In this document: one piece after another, positions 1 through 38,635 of the stretch
How positions within the stretch are numbered: position 1 is the stretch's first letter
Layout of the letters: the number at the start of each line of letters is the position of its first letter
NCBI RefSeq assembly: GCF_022846255.1
Contig: NZ_AP025682.1
Origin: Escherichia coli
Lineage (GTDB): Bacteria; Pseudomonadota; Gammaproteobacteria; Enterobacterales; Enterobacteriaceae
Direction: 5' to 3' (one strand)
DNA length: 64,000 bases
Made by a program: the position numbers and the translations under genes
The notes under the pieces: model-generated
What the model saw: only the letters and a program-made list of their open reading frames with translations
Databases searched by the model: none
Told to the model about the DNA's origin: nothing

Positions 1-811
1 CTACACCGCTGGCGAAGCGGACTGACTCCGCTAAATCCCCACCTGTGGCCAGCGCCACCGCCAAAGCGCCGTGAAAAACATCACCCGCTCCTGTGGTATC
101 TACCACATCAACTTTGAAGGCCGGTTGATGTTGACGCCCGCCATTTTCCAGCCAGTCGCAGCCTGCGCTGCCCTGGGTCACATAGACATGACCATTTGTG
201 AGCGTTTGTGCCTGTTTTAGGGCACTCGCCATCTCTTTCACGCCCGTTAAGCGCGCCAGACCCGGTTCTGAAAAAGCTGCATGATCGCTTAACGCCACCA
301 GTTCGCTGATATCCTGCGGCGTAATATCACCGTCCAGCACGGTCATTACGCCCGCCTGCCGCGCCAGAGTGAAGGCTTTTTTCGCGCCGTCGTGCCAGCG
401 TACATCTGCCAGCACCACGTCCCACTGAGAGAAATCAATTTCCTCCAACCACTCTGCATCAGGCAGTAGGTCTGGGCTGGGATAGTTAATGATGATGCGC
501 TCACCTTTGGCATCCACCATGATGGCGGATTGCGAAGATTTCGCCTGGTTATACCGTTTGGTGTAACGGGTGTTAACACCCCAGGATTCCAGCTCTGCCA
601 GCAGGCTGTTGCCCGTGTCGTCGTCACCGACGCGACCAATAAAATCGACCTGCGCACCTAGTCTGGCCGCCGCAACTGCTGCTGTAGCCGCTGGCCCGCC
701 GCCAACTTCCGTATAATTTTTCGCCACGTATTTACCGCTCTCCGTCGGCAATCCTTCCACGTAATAGATGCGATCCATCACGGTAATTCCTACACAAGCA
801 ACACGAATCAT
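1..811 (-). CDS. yihV: 6-deoxy-6-sulfofructose kinase (pfkB/ribokinase family); C-terminal ~28 aa lie beyond the window edge
   Basis: Minus-strand reading frame from ATG at 809-811 translates MIRVACVGITVMDRIYYVEGLPTESGKYVAK...TTGAGDVFHGALAVALA; no stop inside window; divergent from yihU. Not in the ORF track because it is unterminated. Confidence 0.85.
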   Translation of the reverse strand, partial: MIRVACVGITVMDRIYYVEGLPTESGKYVAKNYTEVGGGPAATAAVAAARLGAQVDFIGRVGDDDTGNSLLAELESWGVNTRYTKRYNQAKSSQSAIMVDAKGERIIINYPSPDLLPDAEWLEEIDFSQWDVVLADVRWHDGAKKAFTLARQAGVMTVLDGDITPQDISELVALSDHAAFSEPGLARLTGVKEMASALKQAQTLTNGHVYVTQGSAGCDWLENGGRQHQPAFKVDVVDTTGAGDVFHGALAVALATGGDLAESVRFASGV

Positions 812-978
812 GGTCATTCCTTAAGCATTTTGGGATGCGTTCATTTTAATTTCATCAATTGTTTAAAAAGTGACGGCTGTCAATTTTTTGACGATAAATT
901 ACAAATACGATCAAAAACAGACAAGCAAGGCATGTCATAAATGACAAAAAGTGACATCACTGTATTCAGGAGAGAGTT
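812..978. promoter_or_regulatory. Divergent yihV/yihU promoter region with repeated AAAAAGTGAC motifs and a TGACGGCTGTCA palindrome (candidate CsqR/YihW operator sites)
   Basis: AT-rich 167 bp intergenic region between divergent genes; two copies of AAAAAGTGAC (around 860 and 941) and palindrome at 864-875; RBS AGGAGAG upstream of yihU ATG. Confidence 0.4.
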
Positions 979-1875
979 ATGGCAGCAATCGCGTTTATCG
1001 GTTTAGGGCAAATGGGTTCGCCAATGGCGAGCAATTTATTGCAGCAAGGGCATCAACTTTGCGTCTTCGATGTGAATACCGAAGCCGTACAGCATCTGGT
1101 CGACAAAGGGGCGACTCCCGCTGCTAACCCAGCGCAGGCCGCTAAAGGTGCCGAATTTATCATTACCATGTTGCCGAATGGCGATCTGGTGCGTCACGTG
1201 TTGTTCGGTGAAAACGGTGTCTGTGAGAGCTTATCTTCCGATGCGCTGGTCATTGATATGTCGACCATCCACCCGCTGCAAACCGATAAATTGATTGCTG
1301 ATATGCAGGCCAGAGGCTTCAGCATGATGGATGTTCCGGTAGGCCGTACTTCCGCAAATGCCATTACCGGTACTCTGCTACTGCTGGCTGGCGGCACTGC
1401 TGAACAAGTTGAACGCGCCACGCCGATCCTGATGGCGATGGGCAGCGAGTTGATCAACGCGGGCGGTCCGGGCATGGGGATCCGCGTTAAGCTTATCAAC
1501 AACTACATGAGCATCGCGCTCAATGCGTTGTCGGCAGAAGCCGCCGTTTTGTGCGAAGCCCTCAATCTTCCCTTCGATGTTGCCGTCAAGGTAATGAGCG
1601 GTACTGCCGCCGGTAAAGGCCACTTCACCACTTCCTGGCCGAACAAAGTCCTCAGCGGAGATCTTTCTCCCGCCTTCATGATCGATCTTGCCCATAAGGA
1701 TCTTGGCATCGCCCTTGATGTCGCCAACCAGTTGCATGTGCCGATGCCACTGGGGGCCGCCTCACGGGAGGTTTATAGCCAGGCGCGCGCAGCGGGTCGC
1801 GGTCGCCAGGACTGGTCCGCCATTCTGGAGCAGGTCCGTGTCAGTGCCGGGATGACTGCCAAAGTAAAAATGTAA
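979..1875 (+). CDS. yihU: 3-sulfolactaldehyde reductase (beta-hydroxyacid dehydrogenase family)
   Basis: 298 aa ORF, N-terminal Rossmann motif [13 protein letters not shown]; matches remembered E. coli YihU. Confidence 0.9.
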
Positions 1876-1898
1876 CGACTGGATAAAGGAATAAATGA

Positions 1899-2777
1899 AT
1901 GAATAAGTACACCATCAACGACATTACGCGTGCATCGGGCGGTTTTGCCATGCTGGCGGTCGATCAGCGCGAAGCCATGCGCATGATGTTTGCCGCGGCT
2001 GGCGCACCCGCTCCAGTAGCCGATAGCGTTTTAACTGATTTCAAAGTTAACGCCGCGAAGACTCTTTCACCTTATGCATCGGCGATTCTGGTAGATCAAC
2101 AATTCTGCTACCGCCAGGTGGTTGAGCAAAACGCGATTGCCAAAAGTTGCGCCATGATTGTCGCCGCCGATGAGTTCATTCCTGGCAACGGTATTCCGGT
2201 AGATAGCGTGGTCATTGACCGCAAAATCAATCCGCTACAAATCAAACAAGACGGTGGCAAAGCCTTAAAACTGCTGGTGCTGTGGCGTAGTGATGAAGAT
2301 GCGCAGCAACGCCTGGATATGGTGAAAGAGTTTAACGAAATGTGCCACTCACACGGTCTGGTAAGCATCATTGAGCCAGTCGTCCGCCCACCGCGTCGTG
2401 GCGATAAATTCGATCGCGAACAAGCAATCATCGATGCAGCCAAAGAGCTGGGCGACAGTGGCGCTGATCTCTACAAAGTTGAAATGCCGCTTTACGGTAA
2501 AGGTCCGCAACAAGAGCTTCTCAGTGCTTCACAACGTCTGAATGACCATATCAATATGCCGTGGGTGATCCTCTCTTCCGGTGTCGACGAAAAACTGTTC
2601 CCGCGTGCCGTACGCGTGGCAATGACAGCGGGTGCATCGGGCTTCCTGGCTGGTCGTGCCGTCTGGGCATCGGTCGTCGGTTTACCAGACAACGAGCTGA
2701 TGCTGCGTGACGTTTGCGCACCGAAATTACAACAACTTGGCGATATCGTCGACGAAATGATGGCTAAACGCCGTTAA
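1899..2777 (+). CDS. yihT: 6-deoxy-6-sulfofructose-1-phosphate aldolase
   Basis: 292 aa ORF 23 bp downstream of yihU; class I aldolase-like; synteny with sulfoglycolysis cluster. Confidence 0.9.
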
Positions 2778-2792
2778 GATGGGGATACAAAA

Positions 2793-4034
2793 ATGAAATG
2801 GTTTAACACTTTAAGTCACAACCGTTGGCTGGAACAGGAAACCGATCGCATCTTTGATTTTGGTAAAAAATCCGTAGTACCGACCGGATTTGGCTGGTTA
2901 GGCAATAAAGGGCAAATCAAAGAAGAGATGGGCACCCATCTGTGGATCACAGCTCGTATGTTGCACGTTTATTCCGTTGCTGCGGCGATGGGCCGACCTG
3001 GCGCTTACTCGTTGGTTGATCACGGTATCAAAGCCATGAATGGCGCACTGCGCGATAAAAAATATGGCGGTTGGTATGCCTGCGTGAATGACGAGGGCGT
3101 GGTGGATGCCTCCAAACAGGGCTATCAACATTTCTTTGCTCTGCTGGGTGCTGCCAGCGCCGTCACTACCGGTCATCCGGAAGCGCGCAAGCTGCTCGAT
3201 TACACCATTGAAATTATCGAGAAATACTTCTGGAGCGAAGAAGAGCAGATGTGCCTGGAGTCCTGGGATGAAGCCTTCAGCAAAACCGAAGAGTATCGCG
3301 GCGGCAATGCCAATATGCACGCGGTGGAAGCCTTCCTGATTGTCTATGACGTCACCCATGACAAAAAATGGCTGGATCGCGCGATTCGCGTGGCTTCCGT
3401 GATTATCCACGACGTCGCCAGAAATAATCATTATCGCGTTAACGAACACTTCGATACCCAGTGGAATCCGCTGCCAGATTACAACAAAGATAACCCGGCG
3501 CACCGCTTCCGCGCGTTCGGAGGTACTCCGGGCCACTGGATCGAATGGGGCCGTTTAATGCTGCACATTCACGCGGCCCTGGAAGCCCGTTGCGAACAAC
3601 CGCCAGCATGGCTGCTAGAAGATGCCAAAGGTCTGTTTAACGCCACCGTGCGCGATGCCTGGGCACCCGATGGCGCGGACGGGATTGTTTATACCGTTGA
3701 CTGGGAAGGAAAACCGGTGGTCCGCGAACGTGTGCGTTGGCCTATCGTCGAAGCGATGGGTACGGCCTACGCGCTCTACACCGTCACTGGCGATCGCCAG
3801 TACGAAACTTGGTATCAGACATGGTGGGACTACTGCATCAAATACCTGATGGACTACGAAAATGGTTCATGGTGGCAGGAGCTGGATGCGGACAATAAGG
3901 TCACCACCAAAGTCTGGGACGGCAAACAGGATATTTATCATCTGCTGCATTGTCTGGTGATCCCACGTATCCCGTTAGCGCCAGGCCTGGCTCCGGCGGT
4001 TGCGGCGGGTCTGCTGGATATTAACGCGAAATAA
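2793..4034 (+). CDS. yihS: sulfoquinovose isomerase (AGE/N-acylglucosamine epimerase-like fold)
   Basis: 413 aa ORF; synteny yihT-yihS-yihR. Confidence 0.9.
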
Positions 4035-4100
4035 CTGACTAAAAAAACGACATATCAGGCTGCACGCCGGGTATGTCGTTATTCAATAAAGGTACCTCGT

Positions 4101-5003
4101 ATGCAAATCACCAACATGCATTGCAGTGGACAGACCGTTTCACTTGCCGCGGGGGATTATCACGCGACCATTGTGACCGTCGGTGCAGGTCTGGCTGAAT
4201 TAACCTTTCAGGGCTGTCATTTAGTTATTCCGCATAAACCCGAAGAGATGCCGCTGGCACATCTGGGCAAAGTCCTTATTCCGTGGCCAAACCGGATCGC
4301 CAACGGCTGTTATCGCTATCAGGGGCAGGAATATCAGTTACCCATTAATGAACATGGTTCAAAAGCCGCTATTCATGGGCTGCTCGCCTGGCGTGACTGG
4401 CAAATCAGCGAATTAAGCGCCACCAGCGTCACATTAACCGCCTTTCTGCCACCCAGTTACGGCTACCCGTTTATGCTGGCTTCGCAGGTGGTTTATTCGC
4501 TCAACGCCCGCACGGGTCTTTCCGTTGAGATCGCAAGCCAGAATATCGGCACTGTCGCAGCGCCTTACGGTGTGGGTATTCACCCTTATTTAACCTGCAA
4601 CTTAACATCTGTTGATGAATATCTGTTCCAGCTTCCGGCAAACCAAGTTTATGCCATCGATGAGCACGCTAATCCGACAACGCTTCACCACGTTGATGAG
4701 CTGGATTTAAATTTCACGCAGGCGAAAAAAATAGCCGCGACAAAAATCGACCACACCTTTAAAACCGCTAATGATTTGTGGGAAATGACTATTACCCATC
4801 CACAGCAGGCGCTTTCGGTGAGCCTCTGTTCCGATCAACCCTGGGTGCAGGTTTATAGCGGTGAAAAATTACAACGTCAGGGACTGGCAGTTGAACCAAT
4901 GAGTTGCCCGCCTAACGCCTTTAATTCAGGTATCGACTTATTATTACTGGAACCAGGGAAAACGCACCGCCTGTTTTTTAATATTCACGGGCAGCACAAT
5001 TAA
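4101..5003 (+). CDS. yihR: aldose 1-epimerase family protein (sulfoquinovose mutarotase)
   Basis: 300 aa ORF MQITNMHCSGQTVSLAAGDYHATIV...; RBS AAAGG upstream. Confidence 0.85.
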   Translation: MQITNMHCSGQTVSLAAGDYHATIVTVGAGLAELTFQGCHLVIPHKPEEMPLAHLGKVLIPWPNRIANGCYRYQGQEYQLPINEHGSKAAIHGLLAWRDWQISELSATSVTLTAFLPPSYGYPFMLASQVVYSLNARTGLSVEIASQNIGTVAAPYGVGIHPYLTCNLTSVDEYLFQLPANQVYAIDEHANPTTLHHVDELDLNFTQAKKIAATKIDHTFKTANDLWEMTITHPQQALSVSLCSDQPWVQVYSGEKLQRQGLAVEPMSCPPNAFNSGIDLLLLEPGKTHRLFFNIHGQHN

Positions 5004-5063
5004 TTTTATTAAGAAAAGAACGAGATCATTGTTTAGAGTTGTATTTACACAACAGGAAATATT

Positions 5064-5939
5064 ATGGACTTTTTTACGTTATTTTCACCGGATGGGGTCA
5101 TGCTGGAAACAAACGTGGTATGTATCGTTATCGCGTTAATGTTTCTTTATACCTTTGTGGGGATATGCGCGGGATTTGGCGGTGGTTTAACCACCATGCC
5201 GCTCGTCACGTTAATGCTCCCCGTAAAAATGGCAACTCCGCTCTCGGTGATTGTCGGCACCGCGACCGCCTTGTACGCCACCTGGCTGTCACGTAAAGAA
5301 ACGGATTGGCGATCGGCAATGGTACTGATTATTTTCTCGTTTCTGGGAATACCCGTCGGTTTATATGCGCTGTCGTATTTACCCGACCATTTTATGAAAG
5401 TGGGCTTAGGCGGATTCCTTATCCTGTACTCCTTTTACAGTATGTTTATTCCACGCCTGCCGATTTATGACCGTAGCTGGATCGCCGCACCTATCGGCGC
5501 CGTGGCAGGAGCGTTAGGGGCAGCATTTTCAACCAACGGACCGCCGATGGTTATCTACGGTATGCTGCGTAACTTAGGCCCGGCGGCATTTCGCGGCACT
5601 CTGAACGCTTTCTTCACCGCAAACAACATCGCGGTGATCGGCGGGCTGGCGACCAGCGGAATTTTGACTGTCTCTATCTTTAAACTGGTGCTGTTTTGTA
5701 TTCCCACCATGATCCTCGGTTCACTGGTTGGACAATATGTGCATAAACGCATTTCGGTCAAAGTGTTCCGTGTGATGGTCTTTTTATTGCTGATTGCCTC
5801 CGGTTCTATGTTGATAAAAGGCGCGCTGGGAATTCCCGCCGCTGCCGCACTTCTTCCTCCGTTTACCTTGTTAGTTATACTGCAACTGGCATTTGGTAAA
5901 AAAGTGGCGGCAATCCGTCGGGCGGAAGAAAGTAAATAA
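5064..5939 (+). CDS. TauE/SafE (TSUP) family integral membrane protein, putative sulfite/organosulfonate exporter
   Basis: 291 aa ORF, highly hydrophobic with ~8 predicted TM segments and two Gly-rich repeats (GFGGGLTTMP, GALGAAFSTNGPPM) typical of 4-toluene sulfonate uptake permease/TauE proteins; RBS AGGAAA 7 bp upstream of ATG; sits between yihR and yihQ. Confidence 0.7.
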   Translation: MDFFTLFSPDGVMLETNVVCIVIALMFLYTFVGICAGFGGGLTTMPLVTLMLPVKMATPLSVIVGTATALYATWLSRKETDWRSAMVLIIFSFLGIPVGLYALSYLPDHFMKVGLGGFLILYSFYSMFIPRLPIYDRSWIAAPIGAVAGALGAAFSTNGPPMVIYGMLRNLGPAAFRGTLNAFFTANNIAVIGGLATSGILTVSIFKLVLFCIPTMILGSLVGQYVHKRISVKVFRVMVFLLLIASGSMLIKGALGIPAAAALLPPFTLLVILQLAFGKKVAAIRRAEESK

Positions 5940-5945
5940 TCATTA

Positions 5946-5969
5946 TGCGGGTTTTAATTTATACCCGCA
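5946..5969 (+). terminator. Weak hairpin (7 bp stem TGCGGGT/ACCCGCA) just after the TauE-like gene
   Basis: Inverted repeat 5946-5952/5963-5969 read from sequence; no strong T-run follows, so may be an attenuator or mRNA-stability element rather than a terminator. Confidence 0.3.
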
Positions 5970-6044
5970 CACATTCTTTAATTAATGAAACCTGTAATAA
6001 CAGGATGGCATGAAATATTAGTTTTATATCTATGGAGATTATTT

Positions 6045-8081
6045 ATGGATACGCCACGCCCACAGCTATTAGATTTTCAATTTCATCAGAATAACGACAG
6101 TTTTACTCTACGTTTTCAAGACCGCCTTATTTTAATCCATAGCAAAGATAATCCTTGTTTATGGATTGGTTCAGGTATAGCGGATATCGATATGTTCCGC
6201 GGTAATTTCAGCATTAAAGATAAATTGCAGGAGAAAATTGCGCTTACCGACGCCATCGTCAGCCAGTCACCGGATGGCTGGTTAATCCATTTCAGCCGTG
6301 GTTCTGACATTAGCGCCACGCTGAATATCTCTGCCGACGATCATGGCCGTTTATTGCTGGAACTACAAAACGACAACCTTAACCACAACCGCATCTGGCT
6401 GCGCCTTGCCGCACAGCCGGAAGATCATATCTACGGCTGCGGCGAACAATTCTCCTACTTTGATCTGCGCAGCAAACCGTTCCCGCTGTGGACCAGTGAA
6501 CAAGGCGTTGGTCGCAACAAACAAACCTATGTCACCTGGCAGGCCGACTGCAAAGAGAATGCGGGAGGGGATTACTACTGGACCTTCTTTCCACAACCCA
6601 CGTTTGTTAGCACGCAGAAGTATTACTGCCATGTTGATAACAGTTGCTATATGAACTTCGACTTTAGCGCGCCGGAATACCATGAACTGGCGCTGTGGGA
6701 AGACAAAGCAACACTGCGTTTTGAATGTGCTGATACATACATCTCCCTGCTGGAAAAATTAACCGCGCTGCTGGGACGCCAGCCAGAACTGCCCGACTGG
6801 ATTTATGACGGAGTAACGCTCGGCATTCAGGGCGGCACTGAGGTGTGCCAGAAGAAACTGGACACCATGCGTAACGCGGGCGTGAAGGTCAACGGCATCT
6901 GGGCGCAGGATTGGTCCGGTATTCGTATGACCTCTTTTGGCAAACGCGTAATGTGGAACTGGAAGTGGAACAGCGAAAACTACCCGCAACTGGATTCACG
7001 TATCAAGCAGTGGAACAAAGAGGGCGTACAGTTCCTTGCCTATATCAACCCGTATGTTGCCAGCGATAAAGACCTCTGCGAAGAAGCGGCAAAGCGCGGC
7101 TATCTGGCAAAAGATGCCGCCGGCGGCGATTATCTGGTGGAGTTTGGCGAGTTCTACGGCGGCGTTGTCGATCTCACTAATCCGGAAGCCTACGCCTGGT
7201 TCAAGGAAGTGATCAAAAAGAACATGATTGAACTCGGCTGCGGCGGCTGGATGGCTGACTTCGGCGAGTATCTGCCCACCGACACTTACCTGCATAACGG
7301 CGTCAGCGCCGAAATTATGCATAACGCCTGGCCTGCGCTGTGGGCGAAATGTAACTACGAAGCCCTTGAAGAAACGGGCAAGCTCGGCGAGATCCTCTTC
7401 TTTATGCGCGCCGGTTCCACCGGTAGCCAAAAATATTCCACCATGATGTGGGCGGGCGACCAGAACGTTGACTGGAGTCTGGACGATGGACTGGCGTCTG
7501 TCGTCCCGGCGGCGCTGTCGCTGGCAATGACCGGACATGGCCTGCATCACAGTGATATTGGCGGTTACACCACCCTGTTTGAGATGAAGCGCAGCAAAGA
7601 GCTGCTGCTGCGCTGGTGCGATTTCAGCGCCTTCACGCCGATGATGCGCACCCATGAAGGTAACCGTCCAGGCGACAACTGGCAGTTTGATAGCGACGCG
7701 GAAACTATCGCCCATTTTGCCCGTATGACCACCGTCTTCACTACCCTGAAACCTTACCTGAAAGAGGCCGTCGCGCTGAATGCGAAGTCCGGCCTGCCGG
7801 TTATGCGCCCGCTGTTCCTGCATTACGAAGACGATGCACAGACCTACACCCTGAAATATCAGTACCTGTTAGGCCGCGACATTCTGGTCGCTCCGGTGCA
7901 TGAAGAAGGCCGTAGCGACTGGACGCTCTATCTGCCGGAGGATAACTGGGTCCACGCCTGGACGGGTGAAGCGTTCCGGGGCGGGGAAGTGACCGTTAAT
8001 GCGCCCATCGGTAAACCGCCGGTCTTTTATCGCGCCGATAGCGAATGGGCGGCACTGTTCGCGTCGTTAAAAAGCATCTAA
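6045..8081 (+). CDS. yihQ: sulfoquinovosidase (GH31 alpha-glucosidase family)
   Basis: ORF track starts at 5985; true start taken as ATG 6045 (MDTPRPQLLDFQFHQ...) with RBS GGAG upstream, giving 678 aa. Confidence 0.9.
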   Translation: MDTPRPQLLDFQFHQNNDSFTLRFQDRLILIHSKDNPCLWIGSGIADIDMFRGNFSIKDKLQEKIALTDAIVSQSPDGWLIHFSRGSDISATLNISADDHGRLLLELQNDNLNHNRIWLRLAAQPEDHIYGCGEQFSYFDLRSKPFPLWTSEQGVGRNKQTYVTWQADCKENAGGDYYWTFFPQPTFVSTQKYYCHVDNSCYMNFDFSAPEYHELALWEDKATLRFECADTYISLLEKLTALLGRQPELPDWIYDGVTLGIQGGTEVCQKKLDTMRNAGVKVNGIWAQDWSGIRMTSFGKRVMWNWKWNSENYPQLDSRIKQWNKEGVQFLAYINPYVASDKDLCEEAAKRGYLAKDAAGGDYLVEFGEFYGGVVDLTNPEAYAWFKEVIKKNMIELGCGGWMADFGEYLPTDTYLHNGVSAEIMHNAWPALWAKCNYEALEETGKLGEILFFMRAGSTGSQKYSTMMWAGDQNVDWSLDDGLASVVPAALSLAMTGHGLHHSDIGGYTTLFEMKRSKELLLRWCDFSAFTPMMRTHEGNRPGDNWQFDSDAETIAHFARMTTVFTTLKPYLKEAVALNAKSGLPVMRPLFLHYEDDAQTYTLKYQYLLGRDILVAPVHEEGRSDWTLYLPEDNWVHAWTGEAFRGGEVTVNAPIGKPPVFYRADSEWAALFASLKSI

Positions 8082-8126
8082 TCACATCCGCCCGTGGGGA
8101 AACTCACGGGCAAAGGGAGAACAACG

Positions 8127-9512
8127 ATGAGTCACATCACAACGGAAGATCCAGCAACTCTACGCCTGCCCTTTAAAGAGAAACTCTCTTACGGTATCGG
8201 CGATCTGGCCTCTAACATCCTACTGGATATCGGCACGCTTTATCTTTTGAAGTTTTATACCGATGTTCTGGGGCTGCCTGGCACCTATGGCGGCATTATC
8301 TTTTTGATTTCAAAATTCTTTACCGCCTTTACCGATATGGGTACCGGCATTATGTTGGATTCCCGACGCAAGATCGGTCCAAAAGGTAAGTTCCGTCCTT
8401 TTATTCTGTATGCGTCATTTCCGGTCACCCTGCTGGCGATCGCCAACTTTGTCGGCACACCGTTTGATGTCACCGGTAAAACGGTGATGGCCACCATCCT
8501 GTTTATGCTTTACGGACTGTTTTTCAGCATGATGAACTGCTCGTATGGCGCGATGGTCCCCGCTATTACTAAAAACCCCAACGAACGCGCCTCACTGGCG
8601 GCATGGCGTCAGGGTGGCGCTACATTGGGCCTGCTGCTTTGTACGGTGGGATTCGTGCCGGTTATGAATCTTATCGAGGGTAATCAGCAACTTGGCTATA
8701 TCTTCGCCGCCACGCTGTTTTCACTGTTCGGCCTGCTGTTTATGTGGATCTGCTATTCGGGCGTGAAAGAGCGTTATGTCGAAACCCAACCTACCAATCC
8801 GGCGCAAAAGCCTGGCTTGTTGCAATCTTTCCGCGCAATTGCGGGGAACCGCCCACTGTTCATTTTGTGCATTGCCAACCTCTGTACCTTAGGGGCGTTT
8901 AACGTCAAGCTCGCCATTCAGGTCTATTACACCCAGTACGTGCTTAACGATCCCATCCTGTTGTCATATATGGGATTTTTCAGCATGGGCTGTATTTTCA
9001 TCGGCGTGTTCCTGATGCCTGGTGCAGTCAGACGTTTTGGTAAGAAGAAGGTCTATATCGGCGGTCTGCTGATCTGGGTGCTGGGCGATCTGCTCAACTA
9101 TTTCTTCGGCGGCGGCTCGGTCAGCTTTGTGGCTTTCTCCTGCCTGGCGTTCTTTGGTTCGGCGTTTGTTAACAGCCTGAACTGGGCGCTGGTTTCTGAC
9201 ACCGTCGAGTACGGCGAGTGGCGCACCGGTGTGCGTTCAGAAGGTACGGTCTACACCGGTTTCACCTTCTTTCGCAAAGTATCTCAGGCGCTGGCAGGTT
9301 TCTTCCCAGGCTGGATGCTGACGCAAATTGGCTATGTGCCAAACGTCGCCCAGGCTGACCACACTATCGAAGGGTTGCGCCAACTGATCTTCATCTACCC
9401 AAGCGCACTGGCAGTAGTCACCATTGTGGCAATGGGTTGCTTCTACAGTCTGAACGAGAAGATGTACGTCCGCATTGTTGAAGAGATAGAAGCCCGTAAA
9501 CGCACGGCGTAA
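8127..9512 (+). CDS. yihP: GPH-family sugar:cation symporter (proposed DHPS exporter)
   Basis: Start at ATG 8127 (MSHITTEDPATLRL) after RBS AAGGGAGA; 12-TM melibiose-permease-like sequence; paralog of downstream yihO. Confidence 0.85.
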   Translation: MSHITTEDPATLRLPFKEKLSYGIGDLASNILLDIGTLYLLKFYTDVLGLPGTYGGIIFLISKFFTAFTDMGTGIMLDSRRKIGPKGKFRPFILYASFPVTLLAIANFVGTPFDVTGKTVMATILFMLYGLFFSMMNCSYGAMVPAITKNPNERASLAAWRQGGATLGLLLCTVGFVPVMNLIEGNQQLGYIFAATLFSLFGLLFMWICYSGVKERYVETQPTNPAQKPGLLQSFRAIAGNRPLFILCIANLCTLGAFNVKLAIQVYYTQYVLNDPILLSYMGFFSMGCIFIGVFLMPGAVRRFGKKKVYIGGLLIWVLGDLLNYFFGGGSVSFVAFSCLAFFGSAFVNSLNWALVSDTVEYGEWRTGVRSEGTVYTGFTFFRKVSQALAGFFPGWMLTQIGYVPNVAQADHTIEGLRQLIFIYPSALAVVTIVAMGCFYSLNEKMYVRIVEEIEARKRTA

Positions 9513-9554
9513 TTATAATAAACAACGCCCTGCGGGGCGTTATAAGGAGTGATT

Positions 9555-10958
9555 ATGTCTGACCATAATCCACTGACATTAAAACTGAATCTGCGGGAAA
9601 AAATCGCCTATGGTATGGGCGACGTCGGTTCGAATTTAATGCTTAGCATCGGCACTCTGTATCTCCTCAAATTTTATACCGATGAATTAGGGATGCCTGC
9701 TTACTATGGCGGGATTATCTTTCTGGTGGCGAAATTCTTTACCGCATTTACCGATATGCTCACCGGATTTTTACTCGACTCGCGGAAAAATATTGGACCT
9801 AAAGGAAAATTCAGGCCGTTTATTTTATACGCAGCGATTCCGGCGGCGTTAATTGCAACGCTCCAGTTTATCGCCACCACCTTTAGTTTGCCGGTTAAAA
9901 CGACGATTGCCACCGCACTGTTTATGATGTTTGGACTTTCATACAGTCTGATGAACTGCTCGTATGGCGCGATGATCCCGGCCATTACCAAAAACCCGAA
10001 TGAGCGCGCGCAACTCGCTGCTTACCGCCAGGGTGGTGCAACCATAGGGCTATTGATCTGTACCGTGGCGTTTATTCCTTTGCAGTCACTATTTTCTGAC
10101 TCCACCGTCGGCTACGCCTGCGCGGCACTGATGTTCTCCATTGGCGGCTTTATTTTTATGATGCTGTGCTACAGAGGTGTCAAAGAGCATTATGTGGACG
10201 CGACGCCAACCGGACATAAGGCCAGTATTCTCAAATCATTTTGCGCGATATTTCGTAATCCACCTTTGCTGGTATTGTGCATTGCTAACCTGTGTACCCT
10301 GGCGGCATTTAATATCAAACTGGCGATTCAGGTCTATTACACCCAGTATGTGCTGAATGATATTAACTTATTGTCGTGGATGGGATTCTTTAGTATGGGA
10401 TGCATTCTCATCGGCGTATTACTGGTGCCACTAACTGTAAAATGTTTTGGTAAAAAACAGGTTTATCTGGCTGGCATGGTGCTGTGGGCGGTGGGGGATA
10501 TCCTGAATTATTGCTGGGGCAGTAACTCATTCACTTTCGTCATGTTCTCTTGTGTCGCCTTTTTTGGCACGGCCTTTGTAAACAGCCTGAACTGGGCACT
10601 GGTACCAGATACCGTAGATTATGGTGAATGGAAAACAGGTATACGTGCCGAAGGTTCTGTTTATACCGGTTATACCTTCTTTCGTAAAATTTCAGCCGCA
10701 CTTGCTGGCTTCTTGCCCGGCATTATGCTGACGCAAATCGGTTATATTCCCAACATCGCGCAAAGCGATGCAACATTACAGGGTTTGCGTCAGCTCATTT
10801 TTATCTGGCCTTGTGCGCTGGCAATTATTGCTGCATTGACGATGGGGTTCTTTTACACGCTCAATGAGAAACGGTTTGCACTGATTATTGAGGAAATTAA
10901 CCAACGCAAAAATAAAGAAATCGAGACAGAAGAAAAAACGGCTTCCGTAACGTTATAA
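9555..10958 (+). CDS. yihO: GPH-family sulfoquinovose importer
   Basis: Start ATG 9555 (MSDHNPLTLKL) after RBS AAGGAGTG; 467 aa; strong similarity to yihP product. Confidence 0.85.
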   Translation: MSDHNPLTLKLNLREKIAYGMGDVGSNLMLSIGTLYLLKFYTDELGMPAYYGGIIFLVAKFFTAFTDMLTGFLLDSRKNIGPKGKFRPFILYAAIPAALIATLQFIATTFSLPVKTTIATALFMMFGLSYSLMNCSYGAMIPAITKNPNERAQLAAYRQGGATIGLLICTVAFIPLQSLFSDSTVGYACAALMFSIGGFIFMMLCYRGVKEHYVDATPTGHKASILKSFCAIFRNPPLLVLCIANLCTLAAFNIKLAIQVYYTQYVLNDINLLSWMGFFSMGCILIGVLLVPLTVKCFGKKQVYLAGMVLWAVGDILNYCWGSNSFTFVMFSCVAFFGTAFVNSLNWALVPDTVDYGEWKTGIRAEGSVYTGYTFFRKISAALAGFLPGIMLTQIGYIPNIAQSDATLQGLRQLIFIWPCALAIIAALTMGFFYTLNEKRFALIIEEINQRKNKEIETEEKTASVTL

Positions 10959-11025
10959 ATGTCAATAGCCGCTATTTCCATCCTGATGGGTGGCGGCCTC
11001 CCTACGTTTAAAAAATGGACTTATT

Positions 11026-11718
11026 ATGAAAAATATTAATGCAATAATTTTATTATCTTCTCTGACCTCTGCCTCGGTATTCGCTGGCGCATACGTCGAA
11101 AACAGGGAAGCATATAATCTCGCCTCCGATCAGGGCGAGGTTATGCTACGTGTGGGTTATAACTTCGATATGGGCGCGGGTATTATGCTAACCAATACCT
11201 ACACCTTTCAGCGAGAAGATTAACTCAAACATGGCTATAATGAAATTGAAGGTTGGTATCCTTTATTTAAACCTACCGATAAATTAACCATCCAGCCCGG
11301 TGGCTTAATTAATGACAAGAGTATCGGTTCGGGTGGTGCTGTTTATCTGGATGTTAACTACAAATTTACTCCGTGGTTTAACCTGACGGTGCGTAATCGC
11401 TATAACCATAATAATTACAGCTCTACAGATTTGAACGGCGAATTGGATAATAACGACACCTATGAAGTTGGCACCTACTGGAACTTTAAAATAACAGAAA
11501 AATTTTCCTATACATTTGAACCACATTACTTCATGCGAGTGAATGACTTTAATAGTAGCAACGGGAAAGATCATCATTGGGAAATCACTAACACCTTCCG
11601 TTACCGTATTAATGAACACTGGCTTCCTTATTTCGAATTGCGCTGGTTAGACCGCAACGTCGAGCCGTACCACCGCGAGCAAAACCAGATTCGTATCGGA
11701 ACGAAGTATTTCTTCTGA
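11026..11718 (+). pseudogene. ompL: outer membrane porin OmpL interrupted by an in-frame TAA stop at 11221-11223
   Basis: Signal peptide MKNINAIILLSSLTSASVFA then porin sequence; reading frame has TAA after ...TYTFQRED and continues in the same frame (LKHGYNEIEGWYPLFKPTDKLTIQPGG...YFF) to the normal end at 11718. Confidence 0.75.
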
Positions 11719-11728
11719 TGTAAAAATT

Positions 11729-11764
11729 CCTGATGCGATGCTGGCGCATCTTATCAGGTCTACA
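11729..11764. repeat. REP (repetitive extragenic palindromic) element
   Basis: TCCTGATGCGATGCTGGCGCATCTTATCAGGTCTAC resembles canonical E. coli REP consensus. Confidence 0.5.
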
Positions 11765-11770
11765 AAAGCC

Positions 11771-11802
11771 AAAAAAAACCTGCCATCGCTGGCAGGTTTT
11801 TT
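11771..11802. terminator. Bidirectional rho-independent terminator between convergent ompL and typA
   Basis: Hairpin CCTGCCA-TCGC-TGGCAGG flanked by A-run on the left and T-run on the right. Confidence 0.6.
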
Positions 11803-11819
11803 ATGACTAAAAAACGAAA

Positions 11820-13643
11820 TTAATCGTCTTTCGGTGCGCGGTTGGCGCGACGACGATCGTTTTCCGTCAGGTGACGTTTACGAATACGGATAGAGGTCGG
11901 AGTCACTTCTACCAGTTCGTCATCATCGATGAACTCCAGAGCTTGTTCCAGAGTCATGCGGATAGGCGGAACCAGAACAACGGCTTCGTCAGTACCGGAA
12001 GCACGCATGTTGGTCAGTTTCTTACCGGTCAGGCAGTTTACAGTCAGGTCGTTAGAGCGGCTGTGAATACCGATAATCTGACCTTCGTAAACTTCAGCAC
12101 CGTGACCGAGGAACAGCTTACCGCGATCCTGCAGACCGAACAGCGCGAACGCTACCGCTTTACCCTGACCGTTAGAGATCAGTACGCCGTTCTGACGCTG
12201 GCCCACTTCACCCGGACGTACGTCGTCGTAGTGGCTGAAGGTGGAGTACAGCAGACCAGTACCGGAAGTCATGGTCATGAACTCAGAACGGAAGCCAATC
12301 AGACCACGGCTTGGGATCACGTAGTCGAGACGTACGCGGCCTTTACCGTCTGGATTCATGTTTTTCAGGTCGCCTTTACGTTCGCCCAGCGCCTGCATTA
12401 CAGAACCCTGATGCTGTTCTTCAACGTCCAGAGTCACGTTTTCATACGGCTCTTGTTTACGACCGTCGATTTCACGGAAGATAACTTTCGGACGGGATAC
12501 CGCCAGTTCGAAACCTTCACGACGCATGTTTTCGATAAGAACAGACAGGTGCAGTTCGCCACGACCAGAAACGCGGAACGCATCGGCGTCTTCGGTTTCT
12601 TCTACGCGCAGCGCAACGTTGTGTACCAGTTCTTTGTTCAGACGATCCAGGATCTGACGAGACGTTACGAACTTACCTTCTTTACCGCAGAACGGCGAGG
12701 TGTTAACGCAGAAGAACATAGAAACGGTCGGCTCATCAACGGAGAGTGCCGGCAGCGCTTCAACGTTTTGCGTGTCGCAAACGGTGTCAGAAATGTTCAG
12801 TTCGCCAAGACCCGTGATCGCCACGATATCGCCAGCTTCCGCCAGATCGGTTTCGATACGTTCCAGACCGAGGTGGCCCAGCACTTTACCGACTTTCGCG
12901 TTGCGGGTTTTGCCTTCGCTATCGATGATAGTAACCTGCTGGTTCGGCTTCACTTTACCGCGCTTGATGCGGCCAATGCCGATAACGCCAACATAGCTGT
13001 TGTAATCGAGCTGAGAAATCTGCATCTGGAACGGACCGTCAAGGTCAACGTCCGGCGCAGGAACGTGGTCAACAATCGCCTGGTACAGCGGGGTCATGTC
13101 TTCCGCCATATCTTCGTGGTCCAGACCCGCGATACCGTTCAGCGCAGAAGCGTAAACGATCGGGAAGTCCAGCTGCTCGTCGGTCGCGTCGAGGTTAACG
13201 AACAGATCGAATACCTGATCCACAACCCAATCAGGACGCGCGCCAGGGCGGTCAACTTTGTTGATAACAACAATCGGCTTCAGGCCGTAAGCAAACGCTT
13301 TTTTGGTTACGAAGCGCGTTTGCGGCATCGGGCCGTCAAATGCGTCAACCACCAGCAGCACTGAGTCTACCATGGACATTACACGTTCAACTTCACCACC
13401 GAAGTCGGCGTGCCCCGGGGTATCAACGATGTTGATACGGTAATCATTCCATTTGATAGCGGTGTTTTTCGCGAGGATGGTAATCCCACGCTCTTTCTCC
13501 AAATCGTTGGAGTCCATCACGCGCTCTTGGGTTTCGGCACGAGAGTCGAACGTACCGGATTGTTGGAGCAGCTTGTCTACCAGGGTGGTTTTACCATGGT
13601 CTACGTGCGCGATGATGGCGATATTACGCAATTTTTCGATCAC
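11820..13643 (-). CDS. typA: ribosome-dependent translational GTPase BipA/TypA
   Basis: 607 aa; N-terminal G-domain [18 protein letters not shown]; EF-G-like. Confidence 0.95.
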
Positions 13644-18523: not shown

Positions 18524-19897
18524 TTAAATCACCCGAGAGAACTGCTGCATCCGCGCTTTCTGGCGCAGATAGGTATCAAAGCACATGCAAATGTTGCGGA
18601 TAAGCAGGCGACCTTTCGCCGTCACCTGAATCCCCTTCTCATCCACATCCACCAGCCCATCTTTTGCTAACGGGGCGAGCAGCTTGAGATCTTCCGCAAA
18701 GTAATCAGCGAAGTACAAATCCCACTGTTGCTCAATCGGAGCGTAATCCAGACGGAAGTTGCAGATGAGCGACTTAATCACATCGCGGCGAATACAGTCA
18801 TCACGCGTTAGCGCAATACCACGCCACAGCGCATTGCCTTGTTCATCCACTTGCTGATAGTACTGCTTCAACTCTTTCTGGTTCTGCGCGTAGCAGTCGC
18901 CAATCATGCTGATGGCGGAAACGCCCATCCCCAGCAAATCGGTATCGCCCTGAGTGGTATAGCCCTGGAAGTTACGATGCAACACGCCTTCGCGCTGGGC
19001 CACTGCCAGCTCGTCATCAGGGCGAGCAAAGTGATCCATACCGATAAACTGATAGCCCGATTGTGTCAGGAAGGCGATGGTTTCCTGCAAGATATCGAGT
19101 TTTTGTTGCGGACTCGGCAAGTCAGCATCTTTGATTTTGCGTTGGGCGGCAAAAATAGTTGGCAGATGCGCGTAGTTAAAGACGCTCAGACGGTCAGGGT
19201 TCAGTTCCGCCACGCGTTTCAGGGTAAAGGCGAAACTCTCCGGCGTCTGTTTCGGCAGGCCGTAAATCAGGTCGATGTTGGTGGAGGTAAAACCAATCTC
19301 ACGCGCATGGTTAAGCAGTGCAAAGATGAACTCTTCATCCTGCTCGCGGTTAACCAGACGTTGCACTTCTTTGTTGAAGTCCTGCACGCCCATGCTCAGG
19401 CGATTAAAGCCTTCGGCGCGTAAATGATCGAGTACATCCAGTTCGATTTCCCGCGGATCGACTTCGATCGAAATCTCCGCATCGGCATTGAACTGGAAGT
19501 TTTCGCGCAGCAGCTTCATCAGGCGGCTGATTTGCGCTTTATTCAGATACGTCGGCGTTCCGCCGCCCCAGTGCAATTGGCTGACGTGACGCCCGGCGAA
19601 CAGCGGTGCACGATGGACGATTTCTTGCTCCAGCGCGTCCAGATACTGATCGGCCTTGTGCTGCTGGCGAGTAACAATCTTATTGCAACCGCAGAAGTAA
19701 CAAAGCTTATGGCAGAACGGAATATGTACGTAGAGAGATAATGGACGCTCAGGATAGCGCGCCACGGCTTGTAAAAACGCCTGTTCGCCGAAGTCTTCTG
19801 AAAACTCCAGCGCGGTCGGGTACGAGGTGTATCGTGGCCCGGAATAGTTATATTTCTGGATCAGGGCCAGATCCCAGTCGATTTGCTGTACAGACAT
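18524..19897 (-). CDS. hemN: oxygen-independent coproporphyrinogen III oxidase (radical SAM)
   Basis: 457 aa from ATG 19897 (MSVQQIDWDLAL); CxxxCxxC radical-SAM motif HIPFCHKLCYFCGC; RBS GGAAGGAG. Confidence 0.95.
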   Translation of the reverse strand: MSVQQIDWDLALIQKYNYSGPRYTSYPTALEFSEDFGEQAFLQAVARYPERPLSLYVHIPFCHKLCYFCGCNKIVTRQQHKADQYLDALEQEIVHRAPLFAGRHVSQLHWGGGTPTYLNKAQISRLMKLLRENFQFNADAEISIEVDPREIELDVLDHLRAEGFNRLSMGVQDFNKEVQRLVNREQDEEFIFALLNHAREIGFTSTNIDLIYGLPKQTPESFAFTLKRVAELNPDRLSVFNYAHLPTIFAAQRKIKDADLPSPQQKLDILQETIAFLTQSGYQFIGMDHFARPDDELAVAQREGVLHRNFQGYTTQGDTDLLGMGVSAISMIGDCYAQNQKELKQYYQQVDEQGNALWRGIALTRDDCIRRDVIKSLICNFRLDYAPIEQQWDLYFADYFAEDLKLLAPLAKDGLVDVDEKGIQVTAKGRLLIRNICMCFDTYLRQKARMQQFSRVI

Positions 19898-26313: not shown

Positions 26314-27744
26314 TTAATGAACAAAACGTCCGGCACGAGACATAAATTCTTCTTCGCTCATCTCCTGTCCGTTAAAAGCAACTTTACCCGGTGTATAACG
26401 CAGTTGCAGCGAGGCGGTATTGTTGTCAATCGTGATTAACTGAAACATCTGACCTAAGGTCATCATCCCGCTGATTTGTTTATCAGCCTGCTTTTGCGCT
26501 TTTTCCGCATCCATTCCTTCAGATAAATTAAGCTGTTTTGCGATTTCTGTGGCGACATTAAGCGGTAATTTCACATCAAAATTGAGCGATTTAATATCTT
26601 TGTTTGTGGATGATGAAGATTTGGCTGGGTCGGCAATACTGATATCCAGATTGGCATTTAGTTCGCCGAGTGCATTCTTCCATCTTACCGGTTGTTTAAT
26701 GGTCGGCTCACTTTTTTTTAATAACGGTAAATACTCTTTGAACAATGCAGTATTCACTTCTTGCAGAGCAACTTCATCGTTTGCTAACTCAGGGTGTGCA
26801 GCAAGCTGCTTCTGCATCGCAATGTTATACTGGATGATAAATTGGCGCACCGCTGAGGGATCAATAGATTCAGCAATCAATGACCACTCACCACTACCGA
26901 GTTGCTGATTCCCTTTTGTTAACTTATCAAGTTCGTAGGTCAGATTGACATTGATATAATCTTTGTCTTTAACGCGATCCAGCCTGGTTTTTGCAACGAA
27001 AGCATCGATTTGGGCAACGTCTTCCCCGTGATTGATAATGTTAATCTGATTAAATTTCGACTCGCTTTCACCAACCGGAAATTTCTTTTCTTCTAATCGC
27101 GCCAGAGAATCAATGGTAAAACTTTTCGCCGTTACTTTGTTCATTGGTGATAATTGCAGAACAATATCTTCGACTTTGCCTTCAATATCCAGGTTAGACA
27201 ATGAACTACCATCACCATTAAAAGTAAACTGGCCCTCACCAAAAGAAAACTTTCCATATTTTGCAGGGGCAACATCTAATGTCGTGGAGAATGAGCCACC
27301 AAACGCGAATCGCAATGTCGCTTCCACGGGCGATTTATTTTTCGCGGCGATAAATAGCGGTTGTGTCAGTTCATTATTCACTAATTTCACTTTTGCCGCT
27401 GCCAGTGCGGGGATGACATTACCACGCATTAACATTGTGATGGGCAACGGACCGTGCTCAACATCCACATCAAATACAATTTTCTGGCCTGGCTTGATAT
27501 CGAGATCGGGTGCACCGTTATCAAATGTCATTTGCATTTGAAAACGGGAATTAAAAAAGCCTTTGTCAAAATTTTTATAACTTAACGTCATATCGTAGGC
27601 ATGTTCACCTTTCTTTTTAGCATCGTTAAAACCTTTAATAAACTTTTCGACACCAGGTTGAATTTGCGTACCTGTGTACCATGTGCCACCACCCCAGATT
27701 ACGGCTAACGCAACAATAGCACCTGTAGCTGACTTACGTATCAT
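26314..27744 (-). CDS. yihF: DUF945-family protein YihF
   Basis: Start taken at MIRKSATGAIVALAVIWGGGTWYTG (476 aa); N-terminal signal/anchor. Confidence 0.8.
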   Translation of the reverse strand: MIRKSATGAIVALAVIWGGGTWYTGTQIQPGVEKFIKGFNDAKKKGEHAYDMTLSYKNFDKGFFNSRFQMQMTFDNGAPDLDIKPGQKIVFDVDVEHGPLPITMLMRGNVIPALAAAKVKLVNNELTQPLFIAAKNKSPVEATLRFAFGGSFSTTLDVAPAKYGKFSFGEGQFTFNGDGSSLSNLDIEGKVEDIVLQLSPMNKVTAKSFTIDSLARLEEKKFPVGESESKFNQINIINHGEDVAQIDAFVAKTRLDRVKDKDYINVNLTYELDKLTKGNQQLGSGEWSLIAESIDPSAVRQFIIQYNIAMQKQLAAHPELANDEVALQEVNTALFKEYLPLLKKSEPTIKQPVRWKNALGELNANLDISIADPAKSSSSTNKDIKSLNFDVKLPLNVATEIAKQLNLSEGMDAEKAQKQADKQISGMMTLGQMFQLITIDNNTASLQLRYTPGKVAFNGQEMSEEEFMSRAGRFVH

Positions 27745-37183: not shown

Positions 37184-38635
37184 TCATTCACGCCAGAAAG
37201 TCGGGGTAAAGAGCACCAGCAATGTAAAGACCTCGAGACGACCAAACAGCATGTTGGCAATCAGGATCCATTTAGCCACCGGGTTCATACTGGTAAAGTT
37301 ATCAGCAACCACGCCAAGCCCTGGCCCCAGGTTATTCAATGTCGCAACAACCGAGGCAAAAGCAGAAAAGTCATCCACGCCCGTGGCGATAATCGCCAGC
37401 ATACTGACAATAAACACCAATGCATAGGCGGAGAAAAATCCCCAAACGGCTTCGAGGATACGTTCCGGCAGTGCGCGATTCCCCAGCTTAATGCTATAGA
37501 CGGCGTTCGGATGCACCAGTCGTTTCAGCTCACGGTTCCCCTGCTTAAACAGCAGCAGGATGCGGATCACTTTCAGGCCACCGCCCGTTGACCCGGCACA
37601 ACCGCCGATAAAAGCTGAACATAAAAGCAGTACCGGCAAAAAGAGCGGCCAGCGGGCAATGCTGTCAGTCGTAAACCCGGCGGTTGTCGCCATCGACACC
37701 ACCTGGAAAAACGCCTGGTTAATTGTCATCAGCGCCGAACTGTAGACATTATGAAACCACAGTACGAGGGTACAAATAACCACCAGCGTAAACTGTACGC
37801 CGATAAACATGCGAAATTCCGGATCGCGCCAATAAACCTTCAGACTACGCCCACTTAACAGCGAAAAGTGCAGACCGTAGTTACAGCCGGAGATCAGCAG
37901 GAAGATAGCAATGATAGTGTTAATAGTCGGGCTATCGAAATAACCGATACTGGCATCATGTGTCGAGAAGCCGCCAATAGCGATAGTCGCAAAGCTATGG
38001 CCGATGGCATCAAAGGCATCCATTCCGGCAAACCACAACGCCAGCGCACAGGCGACGGTCAGCAAGACATAAATCAACCACAGGGTTTTCGCCGTTTCCG
38101 CAATTCGCGGGCGCATTTTGTTATCTTTCAGTGGGCCGGGCATTTCTGCGCGATAGAGCTGCATCCCACCCACGCCGAGGATAGGCAGTATCGCAACCGC
38201 CAACACGATGATCCCCATCCCGCCAAACCATTGCAGCATCTGGCGATAAAAGAGGATGGCGTGAGGGAGCGAATCCAGTCCCACCAGCGTAGTGGCCCCC
38301 GTGGTAGTCAGACCGGAGAAAGATTCAAAAAACGCATCGGTAATCGTGAGGTTTGGGCTTTCCGAAAAGATAAAAGGGAGCGCACCGACGCTACCCAACA
38401 CGGTCCAGAACAGCACCACTATCAGAAACCCTTCACGGGATTTCAGTTCGCCCTTTTCTTTACGGTTCGGCCACCACAGCATAGAACCAATGGCAAGAGC
38501 GACAAAAAAGGTCTGGGTAAAGGCGCGGCCCGCACCATCCCGGTAGATGAGTGCTACCAGTCCAGGGATAATCATGGTCCCTGAAAATAAGATGACCAGT
38601 AGTCCAACGATTCGGGTAATGGCGCGAAAATGCAT
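37184..38635 (-). CDS. trkH: Trk system potassium uptake protein TrkH
   Basis: 483 aa polytopic membrane protein MHFRAITRIVGLLVILFSGTM. Confidence 0.95.
   Translation of the reverse strand: MHFRAITRIVGLLVILFSGTMIIPGLVALIYRDGAGRAFTQTFFVALAIGSMLWWPNRKEKGELKSREGFLIVVLFWTVLGSVGALPFIFSESPNLTITDAFFESFSGLTTTGATTLVGLDSLPHAILFYRQMLQWFGGMGIIVLAVAILPILGVGGMQLYRAEMPGPLKDNKMRPRIAETAKTLWLIYVLLTVACALALWFAGMDAFDAIGHSFATIAIGGFSTHDASIGYFDSPTINTIIAIFLLISGCNYGLHFSLLSGRSLKVYWRDPEFRMFIGVQFTLVVICTLVLWFHNVYSSALMTINQAFFQVVSMATTAGFTTDSIARWPLFLPVLLLCSAFIGGCAGSTGGGLKVIRILLLFKQGNRELKRLVHPNAVYSIKLGNRALPERILEAVWGFFSAYALVFIVSMLAIIATGVDDFSAFASVVATLNNLGPGLGVVADNFTSMNPVAKWILIANMLFGRLEVFTLLVLFTPTFWRE

What the first reader, a model, noticed from the sequence alone, without database searches (positions are those of the whole stretch)
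11026..11718. ompL carries an in-frame TAA nonsense codon at 11221-11223
The porin reading frame is intact before and after a single TAA at roughly codon 66, and the downstream sequence continues in the same frame with clear porin sequence to the normal stop. OmpL has been proposed as the outer-membrane channel for sulfoquinovose, so this strain may rely on another porin, or the allele is a recent inactivation.
Basis: seen in the sequence. Interest (0 to 1): 0.45.

Follow-up and report, generated by a model that had tools for sequence, protein, structure and literature searches.

The report
Recent nonsense mutation in porin ompL
One E. coli clone carries a single G-to-T change that turns codon 66 of the accessory outer-membrane porin gene ompL into a stop; this is an ordinary, recent, strain-private gene knockout in a gene that E. 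coli often loses.

Summary
ompL (11026-11718, +) has an in-frame TAA at 11221-11223, which is codon 66. The other 229 codons are identical to the intact allele WP_000789940.1. The only difference over 821 bp from the nearest genome is G->T at 11221 (GAA Glu66 -> TAA).

The allele is private. A 30-mer carrying the T finds 0 of 5,426 complete E. coli genomes, while the G version finds 882. It is probably not an assembler artefact. Two read-level reassemblies (DRR322657 and DRR727809) are 100% identical to the window and carry TAA. All 53 other genes in the window are full length and free of indels.

The source appears to be GenBank E. coli locus_tag series TRECRb50, where the two halves are annotated as hypothetical proteins.

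The product would be a 65-aa precursor, about 3 of 12 barrel strands (inferred), without the C-terminal beta-signal. That makes it a null allele. ompL is the last gene before a terminator, so nothing downstream is affected, and the rest of the sulfoquinovose cassette is intact.

ompL is normally under strong purifying selection (dN/dS 0.04). It is nevertheless absent from about 29% of genomes and broken independently elsewhere by IS1 insertions, deletions and frameshifts. This is an ordinary finding of low interest.

The parts
11026..11718 (+). ompL, KdgM-family porin gene, now a pseudogene (230 codons including the premature stop)
   Evidence: Translation. Homologous stretch annotated 'porin OmpL' in thousands of E. 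coli genomes. NanC structure 2WJQ matches at E 8.8e-10.
11221..11223 (+). premature ochre stop TAA at codon 66; ancestral codon GAA (Glu); the mutated base is G->T at 11221; the next base is C
   Evidence: The 30-mer with T finds 0 genomes and the G version finds 882.
11026..11085 (+). signal-peptide coding part (MKNINAIILLSSLTSASVFA, cleavage inferred after VFA)
   Evidence: Read from the translation. The cleavage site is an inference from the usual signal peptidase I pattern, not a predictor result.
11026..11223 (+). N-terminal remnant ORF, 65 aa; identical to GenBank BDH35530.1 'hypothetical protein TRECRb50_43460'
   Evidence: Exact look-up. Also called on Logan contigs DRR322657_60 and DRR727809_13218.
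11389..11718 (+). C-terminal remnant ORF from an internal GTG, 109 aa; identical to GenBank BDH35531.1. It is an annotation by-product: no signal peptide and no Shine-Dalgarno sequence
9555..10958 (+). yihO (MFS transporter), directly upstream and intact; ompL follows after 67 nt
   Evidence: 100% identical to FHI_NMBU_03 yihO, no gaps or stops; annotation.
979..9512 (+). rest of the sulfoquinovose (yih) cassette, all intact: yihU 979-1875, yihT 1899-2777, yihS 2793-4034, yihR 4101-5003, TauE/SafE gene 5064-5939, yihQ 6045-8081, yihP 8127-9512
   Evidence: each full length, 0-2 mismatches, no gaps, no stops against FHI_NMBU_03; annotation.
11773..11802 (.). G+C-rich hairpin flanked by an A run and a T run: terminator between convergent ompL and typA
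   Evidence: and the sequence. Because of it, the stop in ompL cannot have polar effects on another gene.
11820..13643 (-). typA (bipA), convergent neighbour, intact

Best explanation
This is a genuine, recent loss-of-function mutation confined to one E. coli clone. A single G->T transversion at window position 11221 changed codon 66 of ompL from GAA (Glu) to TAA. Translation ends after 65 residues. After signal-peptide removal this leaves a periplasmic fragment of about 45 residues, roughly the first three of twelve beta-strands. It lacks the C-terminal aromatic strand (...GTKYFF) that the BAM machinery recognises, so no barrel can form and the fragment is presumably degraded (inferred). ompL is the last gene of the yih (sulfoquinovose) transcription unit and is followed by a terminator and the convergent typA, so no other gene is affected. 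The rest of the pathway is intact. The strain therefore most likely still catabolises sulfoquinovose, with the sugar crossing the outer membrane through general porins (inferred). The mutation is most simply a neutral or nearly neutral event in an accessory gene that E. coli lineages often lose.
For: The stop is in frame, and the allele is otherwise identical to intact WP_000789940.1.

The allele is private. The 30-mer with T finds 0 of 5,426 complete genomes, while the G version finds 882 at 100%. Five further ompL loci from other assemblies all have GAA.

It is not an assembler artefact. Logan reassemblies of runs DRR322657 (12,198 bp) and DRR727809 (2,604 bp) are 100% identical to the window and run through the site with TAA. 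The GenBank genome carries the same two fragments, BDH35530.1 and BDH35531.1. All 53 other CDS in the 64-kb window align to FHI_NMBU_03 without a gap or internal stop.

There is no rescue. The first in-frame start codon after the stop is GTG at 11389, with no Shine-Dalgarno sequence and no signal peptide. No suppressor tRNA lies in the window.

The gene normally matters. Window versus K-12 gives dN/dS 0.04 with dS 0.33, and ompL is SQ-induced in K-12 (PMC12608037).

The gene is nevertheless dispensable and often lost. Only 3,850 of 5,426 genomes hold it. Nissle 1917 lacks it yet grows on SQ. Independent lesions elsewhere include two insertions with IS1-like ends (one checked and confirmed as IS1), two internal deletions, a 4-bp deletion and 1-bp indels.

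The beta-signal concept comes from PMC7383365.
Against: No read pile-up could be inspected. DRR322657 may be the same read set used for the deposited assembly, so it excludes an assembler error but not a mutation that arose during laboratory culture. Nothing here measures OmpL protein or growth on sulfoquinovose. The count of strands retained rests on an alignment to NanC and the alternating-residue pattern, because the single-sequence AlphaFold model was unusable (pLDDT 33). Ochre suppressors elsewhere in the genome cannot be excluded from a 64-kb window.
Confidence: 0.85

Rival explanations
1. The T is not in the natural population. It is either a base-calling or consensus error, or a mutation picked up during laboratory passage of the sequenced isolate.
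For: Only one clone carries it. DRR322657 may be the same library as the deposited genome (one search gives only the accession series). G->T is the typical change caused by oxidative damage (own knowledge).
Against: Two separate runs, reassembled independently by Logan, give contigs that pass through the site with T and without a branch. The window has no indel or other stop in 53 further genes, so the assembly is clean. A second run with a distant accession number (DRR727809) has the same allele.
Confidence: 0.05
2. The knockout was selected rather than neutral. Loss of OmpL would remove a surface receptor (for a phage or bacteriocin) or an entry route for a toxic solute, and the clone spread because of it.
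For: ompL is broken repeatedly and in different ways in other E. coli. The allele was seen in two different runs. In Salmonella, transposon disruption of ompL changed fitness on diced onion (PMC13152249).
Against: No phage or toxin using OmpL was found in the papers searched. Deleting ompL did not change resistance to the antibiotics tested (norfloxacin, chloramphenicol) in strain EV18 (bioRxiv 10.1101/2021.11.10.468170). The gene is expressed mainly on sulfoquinovose, so it is a poor target for constant selection. Recurrent loss is equally expected for a conditionally useful gene. Strong purifying selection between lineages (dN/dS 0.04) argues that loss is usually costly or at best neutral.
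Confidence: 0.1
3. The stop is leaky: read-through or an ochre suppressor tRNA still yields enough full-length OmpL to function.
For: The stop is followed by C. By my recollection of published work on the fourth-base effect in E. coli, TAA-C is a weaker termination context than TAA-T or TAA-G.
Against: TAA is read by both release factors, and basal read-through is very low (own knowledge). The stop is not conserved in any relative (0 of 882), so it is not a programmed recoding site. No suppressor tRNA is in the window. The other genes examined show no internal stops and keep their normal ends.
Confidence: 0.02

Closest known systems
Intact E. coli OmpL allele WP_000789940.1 (for example strains Z1323CEC0015 and FHI_NMBU_03)
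   Same: All 229 other codons are identical. The position downstream of yihO and next to typA is the same, and so is the cassette with the TauE/SafE gene.
   Different: Codon 66 is GAA there and TAA here.
E. coli K-12 OmpL (YshA, WP_000723465.1)
   Same: Same gene, same length (230 codons) and same place at the end of the yih cassette. Only 6 amino-acid differences besides the stop.
   Different: 93.5% nucleotide identity, dS 0.33. K-12 has yihLMN between ompL and typA and has no TauE gene. The K-12 gene is intact.
NanC (PDB 2WJQ/2WJR) and KdgM, the structurally characterised members of the KdgM porin family
   Same: Same Pfam family, PF06178. NanC aligns over residues 27-226 at E 8.8e-10. The family is monomeric 12-stranded barrels (own knowledge of the published NanC and KdgM structures).
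   Different: Different substrates (sialic acid, oligogalacturonates). The OmpL substrate is only proposed. Here the gene cannot make a barrel.
Other natural ompL loss alleles and the 'short' yih cassette
   Same: Same outcome, no OmpL. Examples are IS1-type insertions at nt 281 and nt 336, internal deletions, a 4-bp deletion and 1-bp indels, and whole-gene absence in the yihTUVW short cassette, for example Nissle 1917 (PMC12608037).
   Different: Here the lesion is a single nonsense substitution, and the remaining nine pathway genes are intact.

Membership tests
KdgM/OmpL porin family (Pfam PF06178) | Sequence matches the family profile over its whole length | tested here: met
   Repaired translation: PF06178 E 3.4e-90, residues 14-230 on profile positions 1-222 of 222. 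NanC 2WJQ matches at E 8.8e-10.
KdgM/OmpL porin family (Pfam PF06178) | Uninterrupted reading frame encoding signal peptide plus complete barrel ending in an aromatic C-terminal strand | tested here: not met
   TAA at codon 66. The C-terminal ...GTKYFF lies downstream of the stop. It is a member by descent but not a functional member.
KdgM/OmpL porin family (Pfam PF06178) | 12-stranded beta-barrel fold | tested here: inconclusive
   The single-sequence AlphaFold2 model had pLDDT 33 and is unusable. The fold is inferred from homology to NanC only.
ompL orthologue of the E. coli yih (sulfo-EMP) cassette | Located directly downstream of yihO at the end of yihUTSRQPO, on the same strand | tested here: met
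   Gene order in the window matches the annotated genomes.
ompL orthologue of the E. coli yih (sulfo-EMP) cassette | Conducts sulfoquinovose or its glycosides across the outer membrane | not testable with these tools
   Only proposed in the literature read (PMC8006165; PMC12608037). No transport assay was found.
Recent nonsense pseudogene | Premature stop where close relatives have a sense codon, with no further decay | tested here: met
   One base differs from the intact allele. 0 versus 882 genomes for the T and G 30-mers.
Recent nonsense pseudogene | Supported by sequence data independent of the assembly | tested here: met
   Logan contigs from DRR322657 and DRR727809 carry TAA and are 100% identical to the window. 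Whether the samples are independent is unknown.
Programmed stop-codon read-through / recoding site | The stop codon is conserved among relatives | tested here: not met
   No other genome has it.

The most novel reading that the evidence does not exclude
The ompL knockout was favoured by selection in this clone, for example as escape from an unknown phage or bacteriocin that docks on OmpL. The strain would then be a ready-made natural knockout, with an otherwise intact sulfoquinovose cassette, that could show whether OmpL is needed at all for sulfoquinovose or sulfolipid uptake.
Probability: 0.08. Interest if true: 0.3.

Novelty: new member of a known kind. Interest (0 to 1): 0.1.

Why it matters
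It matters little. It adds one more strain-specific pseudogene to a gene that is already known to be variably present.

There are two modest uses. First, the GenBank record annotates the two halves as separate hypothetical proteins (BDH35530.1 and BDH35531.1); they should be one ompL pseudogene. Second, the strain is a natural ompL null with all other sulfoquinovose genes intact. A growth comparison with a repaired derivative would directly test the untested proposal that OmpL is the outer-membrane entry route for sulfoquinovose or its glycosides.

Tried and rejected
1. The exact-protein look-up of the 65-aa fragment returned 11 contigs. Nine of the ten shown looked like extra carriers, but eight of these simply end at that codon. 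Five of the eight show G or GA as the next bases and three stop at the codon boundary, so they give no support for the stop. Only DRR322657 and DRR727809 have TAA.

2. The 57-mer search could not separate 'T plus another SNP' from 'G' by identity band. I replaced it with 30-mer searches in which every 28-base seed must include the variable base.

3. The single-sequence AlphaFold2 model of repaired OmpL had pLDDT 33, so I did not use it. I ran no further search on a deeper alignment, because the conclusion does not depend on the exact strand count.

4. I looked for the strain's close relatives through its GlnG allele. That allele is very common (37,949 index blocks), and the ten loci returned are only about 98.9-99.4% identical to the window, so the mutation could not be dated that way.

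5. A literature search for 'TRECRb50' found nothing. Several searches for 'OmpL' with word-start matching mostly returned OMPLA, the phospholipase.

6. Phase variation is rejected: there is no repeat or homopolymer at the site.

7. A functional split gene or re-initiation is rejected: there is no in-frame start before 11389, and that product has no signal peptide.

8. A polar effect is rejected: ompL is the last gene before a terminator and the convergent typA.

Full report
**What is in the sequence**

The window is E. coli chromosome. Positions 1-11718 hold the sulfoquinovose (yih) cassette in this order:
- yihV on the minus strand, cut by the window start.
- yihU, yihT, yihS, yihR, a TauE/SafE-family gene, yihQ, yihP, yihO and ompL, all on the plus strand.

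The convergent typA follows at 11820-13643. Translating 11026-11718 gives 230 codons with a single internal stop at codon 66, TAA at 11221-11223, and the normal stop at the end. With codon 66 read as Glu, the protein matches Pfam KdgM (PF06178) over the whole profile (E 3.4e-90). It also aligns with the solved porin NanC over residues 27-226 (E 8.8e-10).

**What the lesion is**

The nearest public allele is E. coli Z1323CEC0015, annotated 'porin OmpL', WP_000789940.1. It differs from the window at one base in 821: G instead of T at 11221. The ancestral codon is GAA (Glu66). There is no other change in the gene, synonymous or not, so the event is very recent.

**How widespread it is**

- A 30-base query centred on the T, in which every 28-base seed must contain the T, finds nothing in 5,426 complete RefSeq E. 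coli genomes. The same 30-mer with G finds 882 genomes, all at 100%.
- A 57-mer gave no exact match among 2,798 matching genomes.
- Five further ompL-bearing loci from other assemblies all read GAA.
- In the 15-billion-protein collection, the exact 65-residue product is GenBank BDH35530.1 ('hypothetical protein TRECRb50_43460', on a 4.94-Mb contig). The 109-residue C-terminal ORF is BDH35531.1. This is presumably the source genome, where the pseudogene is annotated as two hypothetical proteins.
- The repaired 230-residue protein is seen on at least 1,000 contigs.

**Is it an artefact?**

Logan reassemblies of two sequencing runs carry TAA and are 100% identical to the window. These are DRR322657 (12,198 bp compared) and DRR727809 (2,604 bp). 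In both, the contig runs through the site. Eight other contigs returned by the same look-up merely end at that codon. Where a next base exists it is G, so they are not support for the stop.

All 53 other protein-coding genes of the window align to strain FHI_NMBU_03 at full length, without any gap or internal stop. The assembly is therefore clean, and ompL is the only damaged gene. I could not inspect read pile-ups, and DRR322657 may be the library behind the deposited genome. A mutation acquired in culture therefore cannot be excluded. I put an artefact of either kind at about 5%.

**Consequence (mechanism; partly inferred)**

The product ends after 65 residues. The first 20 (MKNINAIILLSSLTSASVFA) look like a signal peptide. 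A roughly 45-residue fragment would therefore reach the periplasm.
- By the alignment to NanC and the alternating pattern of residues, this fragment covers about three of the twelve strands. This is inferred, because the single-sequence AlphaFold model was unusable (pLDDT 33).
- It lacks the aromatic C-terminal strand (...GTKYFF). Such strands carry the beta-signal recognised by BAM (PMC7383365). No barrel can form.
- Re-initiation cannot rescue the gene. The first in-frame start after the stop is GTG at 11389, without a Shine-Dalgarno sequence, and its product has no signal peptide.
- The window holds no suppressor tRNA, only tRNA-Ala and tRNA-Ile of the rrn operon.
- The stop is not conserved anywhere, so programmed read-through is not supported.
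- ompL is the last gene before a hairpin terminator (11773-11802) and the convergent typA, so there is no polar effect.
- yihU, T, S, R, Q, P, O and the TauE gene are all intact.

**Biological context**

The literature read here proposes, but does not test, OmpL as the outer-membrane channel of the pathway.
- PMC8006165 calls it 'a sulfolipid porin (OmpL)'.
- In K-12, ompL is induced with the other yih genes on sulfoquinovose, with log2 fold change of five or more (PMC12608037).

The gene is under strong purifying selection between lineages. Window versus K-12 gives dS 0.33, dN 0.013 and dN/dS 0.04.

Yet it is dispensable for many strains:
- Only 3,850 of 5,426 complete genomes contain it.
- The 'short' yihTUVW cassette lacks it, and Nissle 1917, which has that short form, grows on sulfoquinovose as well as K-12 does (PMC12608037).
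- Deleting ompL did not change antibiotic resistance in strain EV18 (bioRxiv 10.1101/2021.11.10.468170).

A look-up of the 109-residue C-terminal ORF also turned up independent ompL lesions in other samples:
- IS1-type ends abutting nt 281 and nt 336. The first was checked and confirmed as IS1; the second was recognised by eye.
- Two internal deletions.
- A 4-bp deletion.
- Three 1-bp indels, at least one of them in a visibly error-prone assembly.

Loss of ompL is thus a recurrent, ordinary event. The present allele is one more instance, distinguished only by being a clean single-base nonsense change in an otherwise intact cassette.

**Verdict**

This is a real, recent, clone-private null allele (E66*) of an accessory porin gene, with confidence about 0.85. 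Selection for the loss is possible but unsupported (about 0.1). A leaky stop is very unlikely (about 0.02). Novelty is that of a new member of a known kind, namely a strain-specific pseudogene. Interest is about 0.1. The only practical value is as a natural knockout for testing whether OmpL matters for sulfoquinovose uptake, and as a correction to the GenBank annotation.

Noticed in passing
window 5064-5939 (+): A TauE/SafE-family 'sulfite exporter' gene sits between yihR and yihQ inside the sulfoquinovose cassette. K-12 has no gene there. The gene is present at this place in 1,287 of 5,426 complete E. coli genomes, including O157:H7. The 2025 paper that classifies yih cassettes into 'long' and 'short' forms never mentions it. 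It could be an exporter for the sulfonate end product, which is speculation.
   Followed up: partly
window 11719-11819, compared with L023 12760-16131: K-12 has yihL-yihM-yihN (about 3.3 kb) between ompL and typA. The window and its relatives have ompL directly next to typA, separated only by a REP-like element and a terminator. Other arrangements next to typA also exist, including the short cassette and an unrelated three-gene set in L030.
   Followed up: partly
window 1-11718 versus K-12 (L023): The whole yih cassette is only 93.5-96.6% identical to K-12, while the adjacent typA is 99.5%. For ompL, dS is 0.33. The cassette exists as deeply diverged haplotypes within E. coli, which fits the recombination proposed in PMC12608037.
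   Followed up: partly
L001 1-44 (NZ_CP148423.1, yihR): The strain with the nearest intact ompL allele has yihR (sulfoquinovose mutarotase) flagged as a pseudogene with an internal stop. The window's yihR is intact. Different single genes of the cassette are knocked out in different close relatives.
   Followed up: no
L012-L020 (other samples): Independent ompL lesions occur in public data. They are a 4-bp deletion (L013), 1-bp deletions at nt 194 and nt 293 (L016, L019), a 1-bp insertion (L017, in an assembly with many split genes), internal deletions (L012, L014), and IS1-type ends at nt 281 (L018, confirmed as IS1) and nt 336 (L020, recognised by eye).
   Followed up: partly
window 11026-11223 and 11389-11718: The GenBank record annotates the two remnants of ompL as separate 'hypothetical proteins' (BDH35530.1 and BDH35531.1) rather than as one pseudogene.
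   Followed up: yes
window 18524-19897 (hemN), 26314-27744 (yihF), 37184-38635 (trkH), 52830-54257 (rmuC), 58423-59913 (tctA): These genes are only 97.5-98.1% identical to the closest complete genome (FHI_NMBU_03), while their neighbours are 99-100% identical. This patchy divergence is typical of recombination tracts. No complete RefSeq genome exceeds 99.6% identity over the first 24 kb of the window.
   Followed up: no
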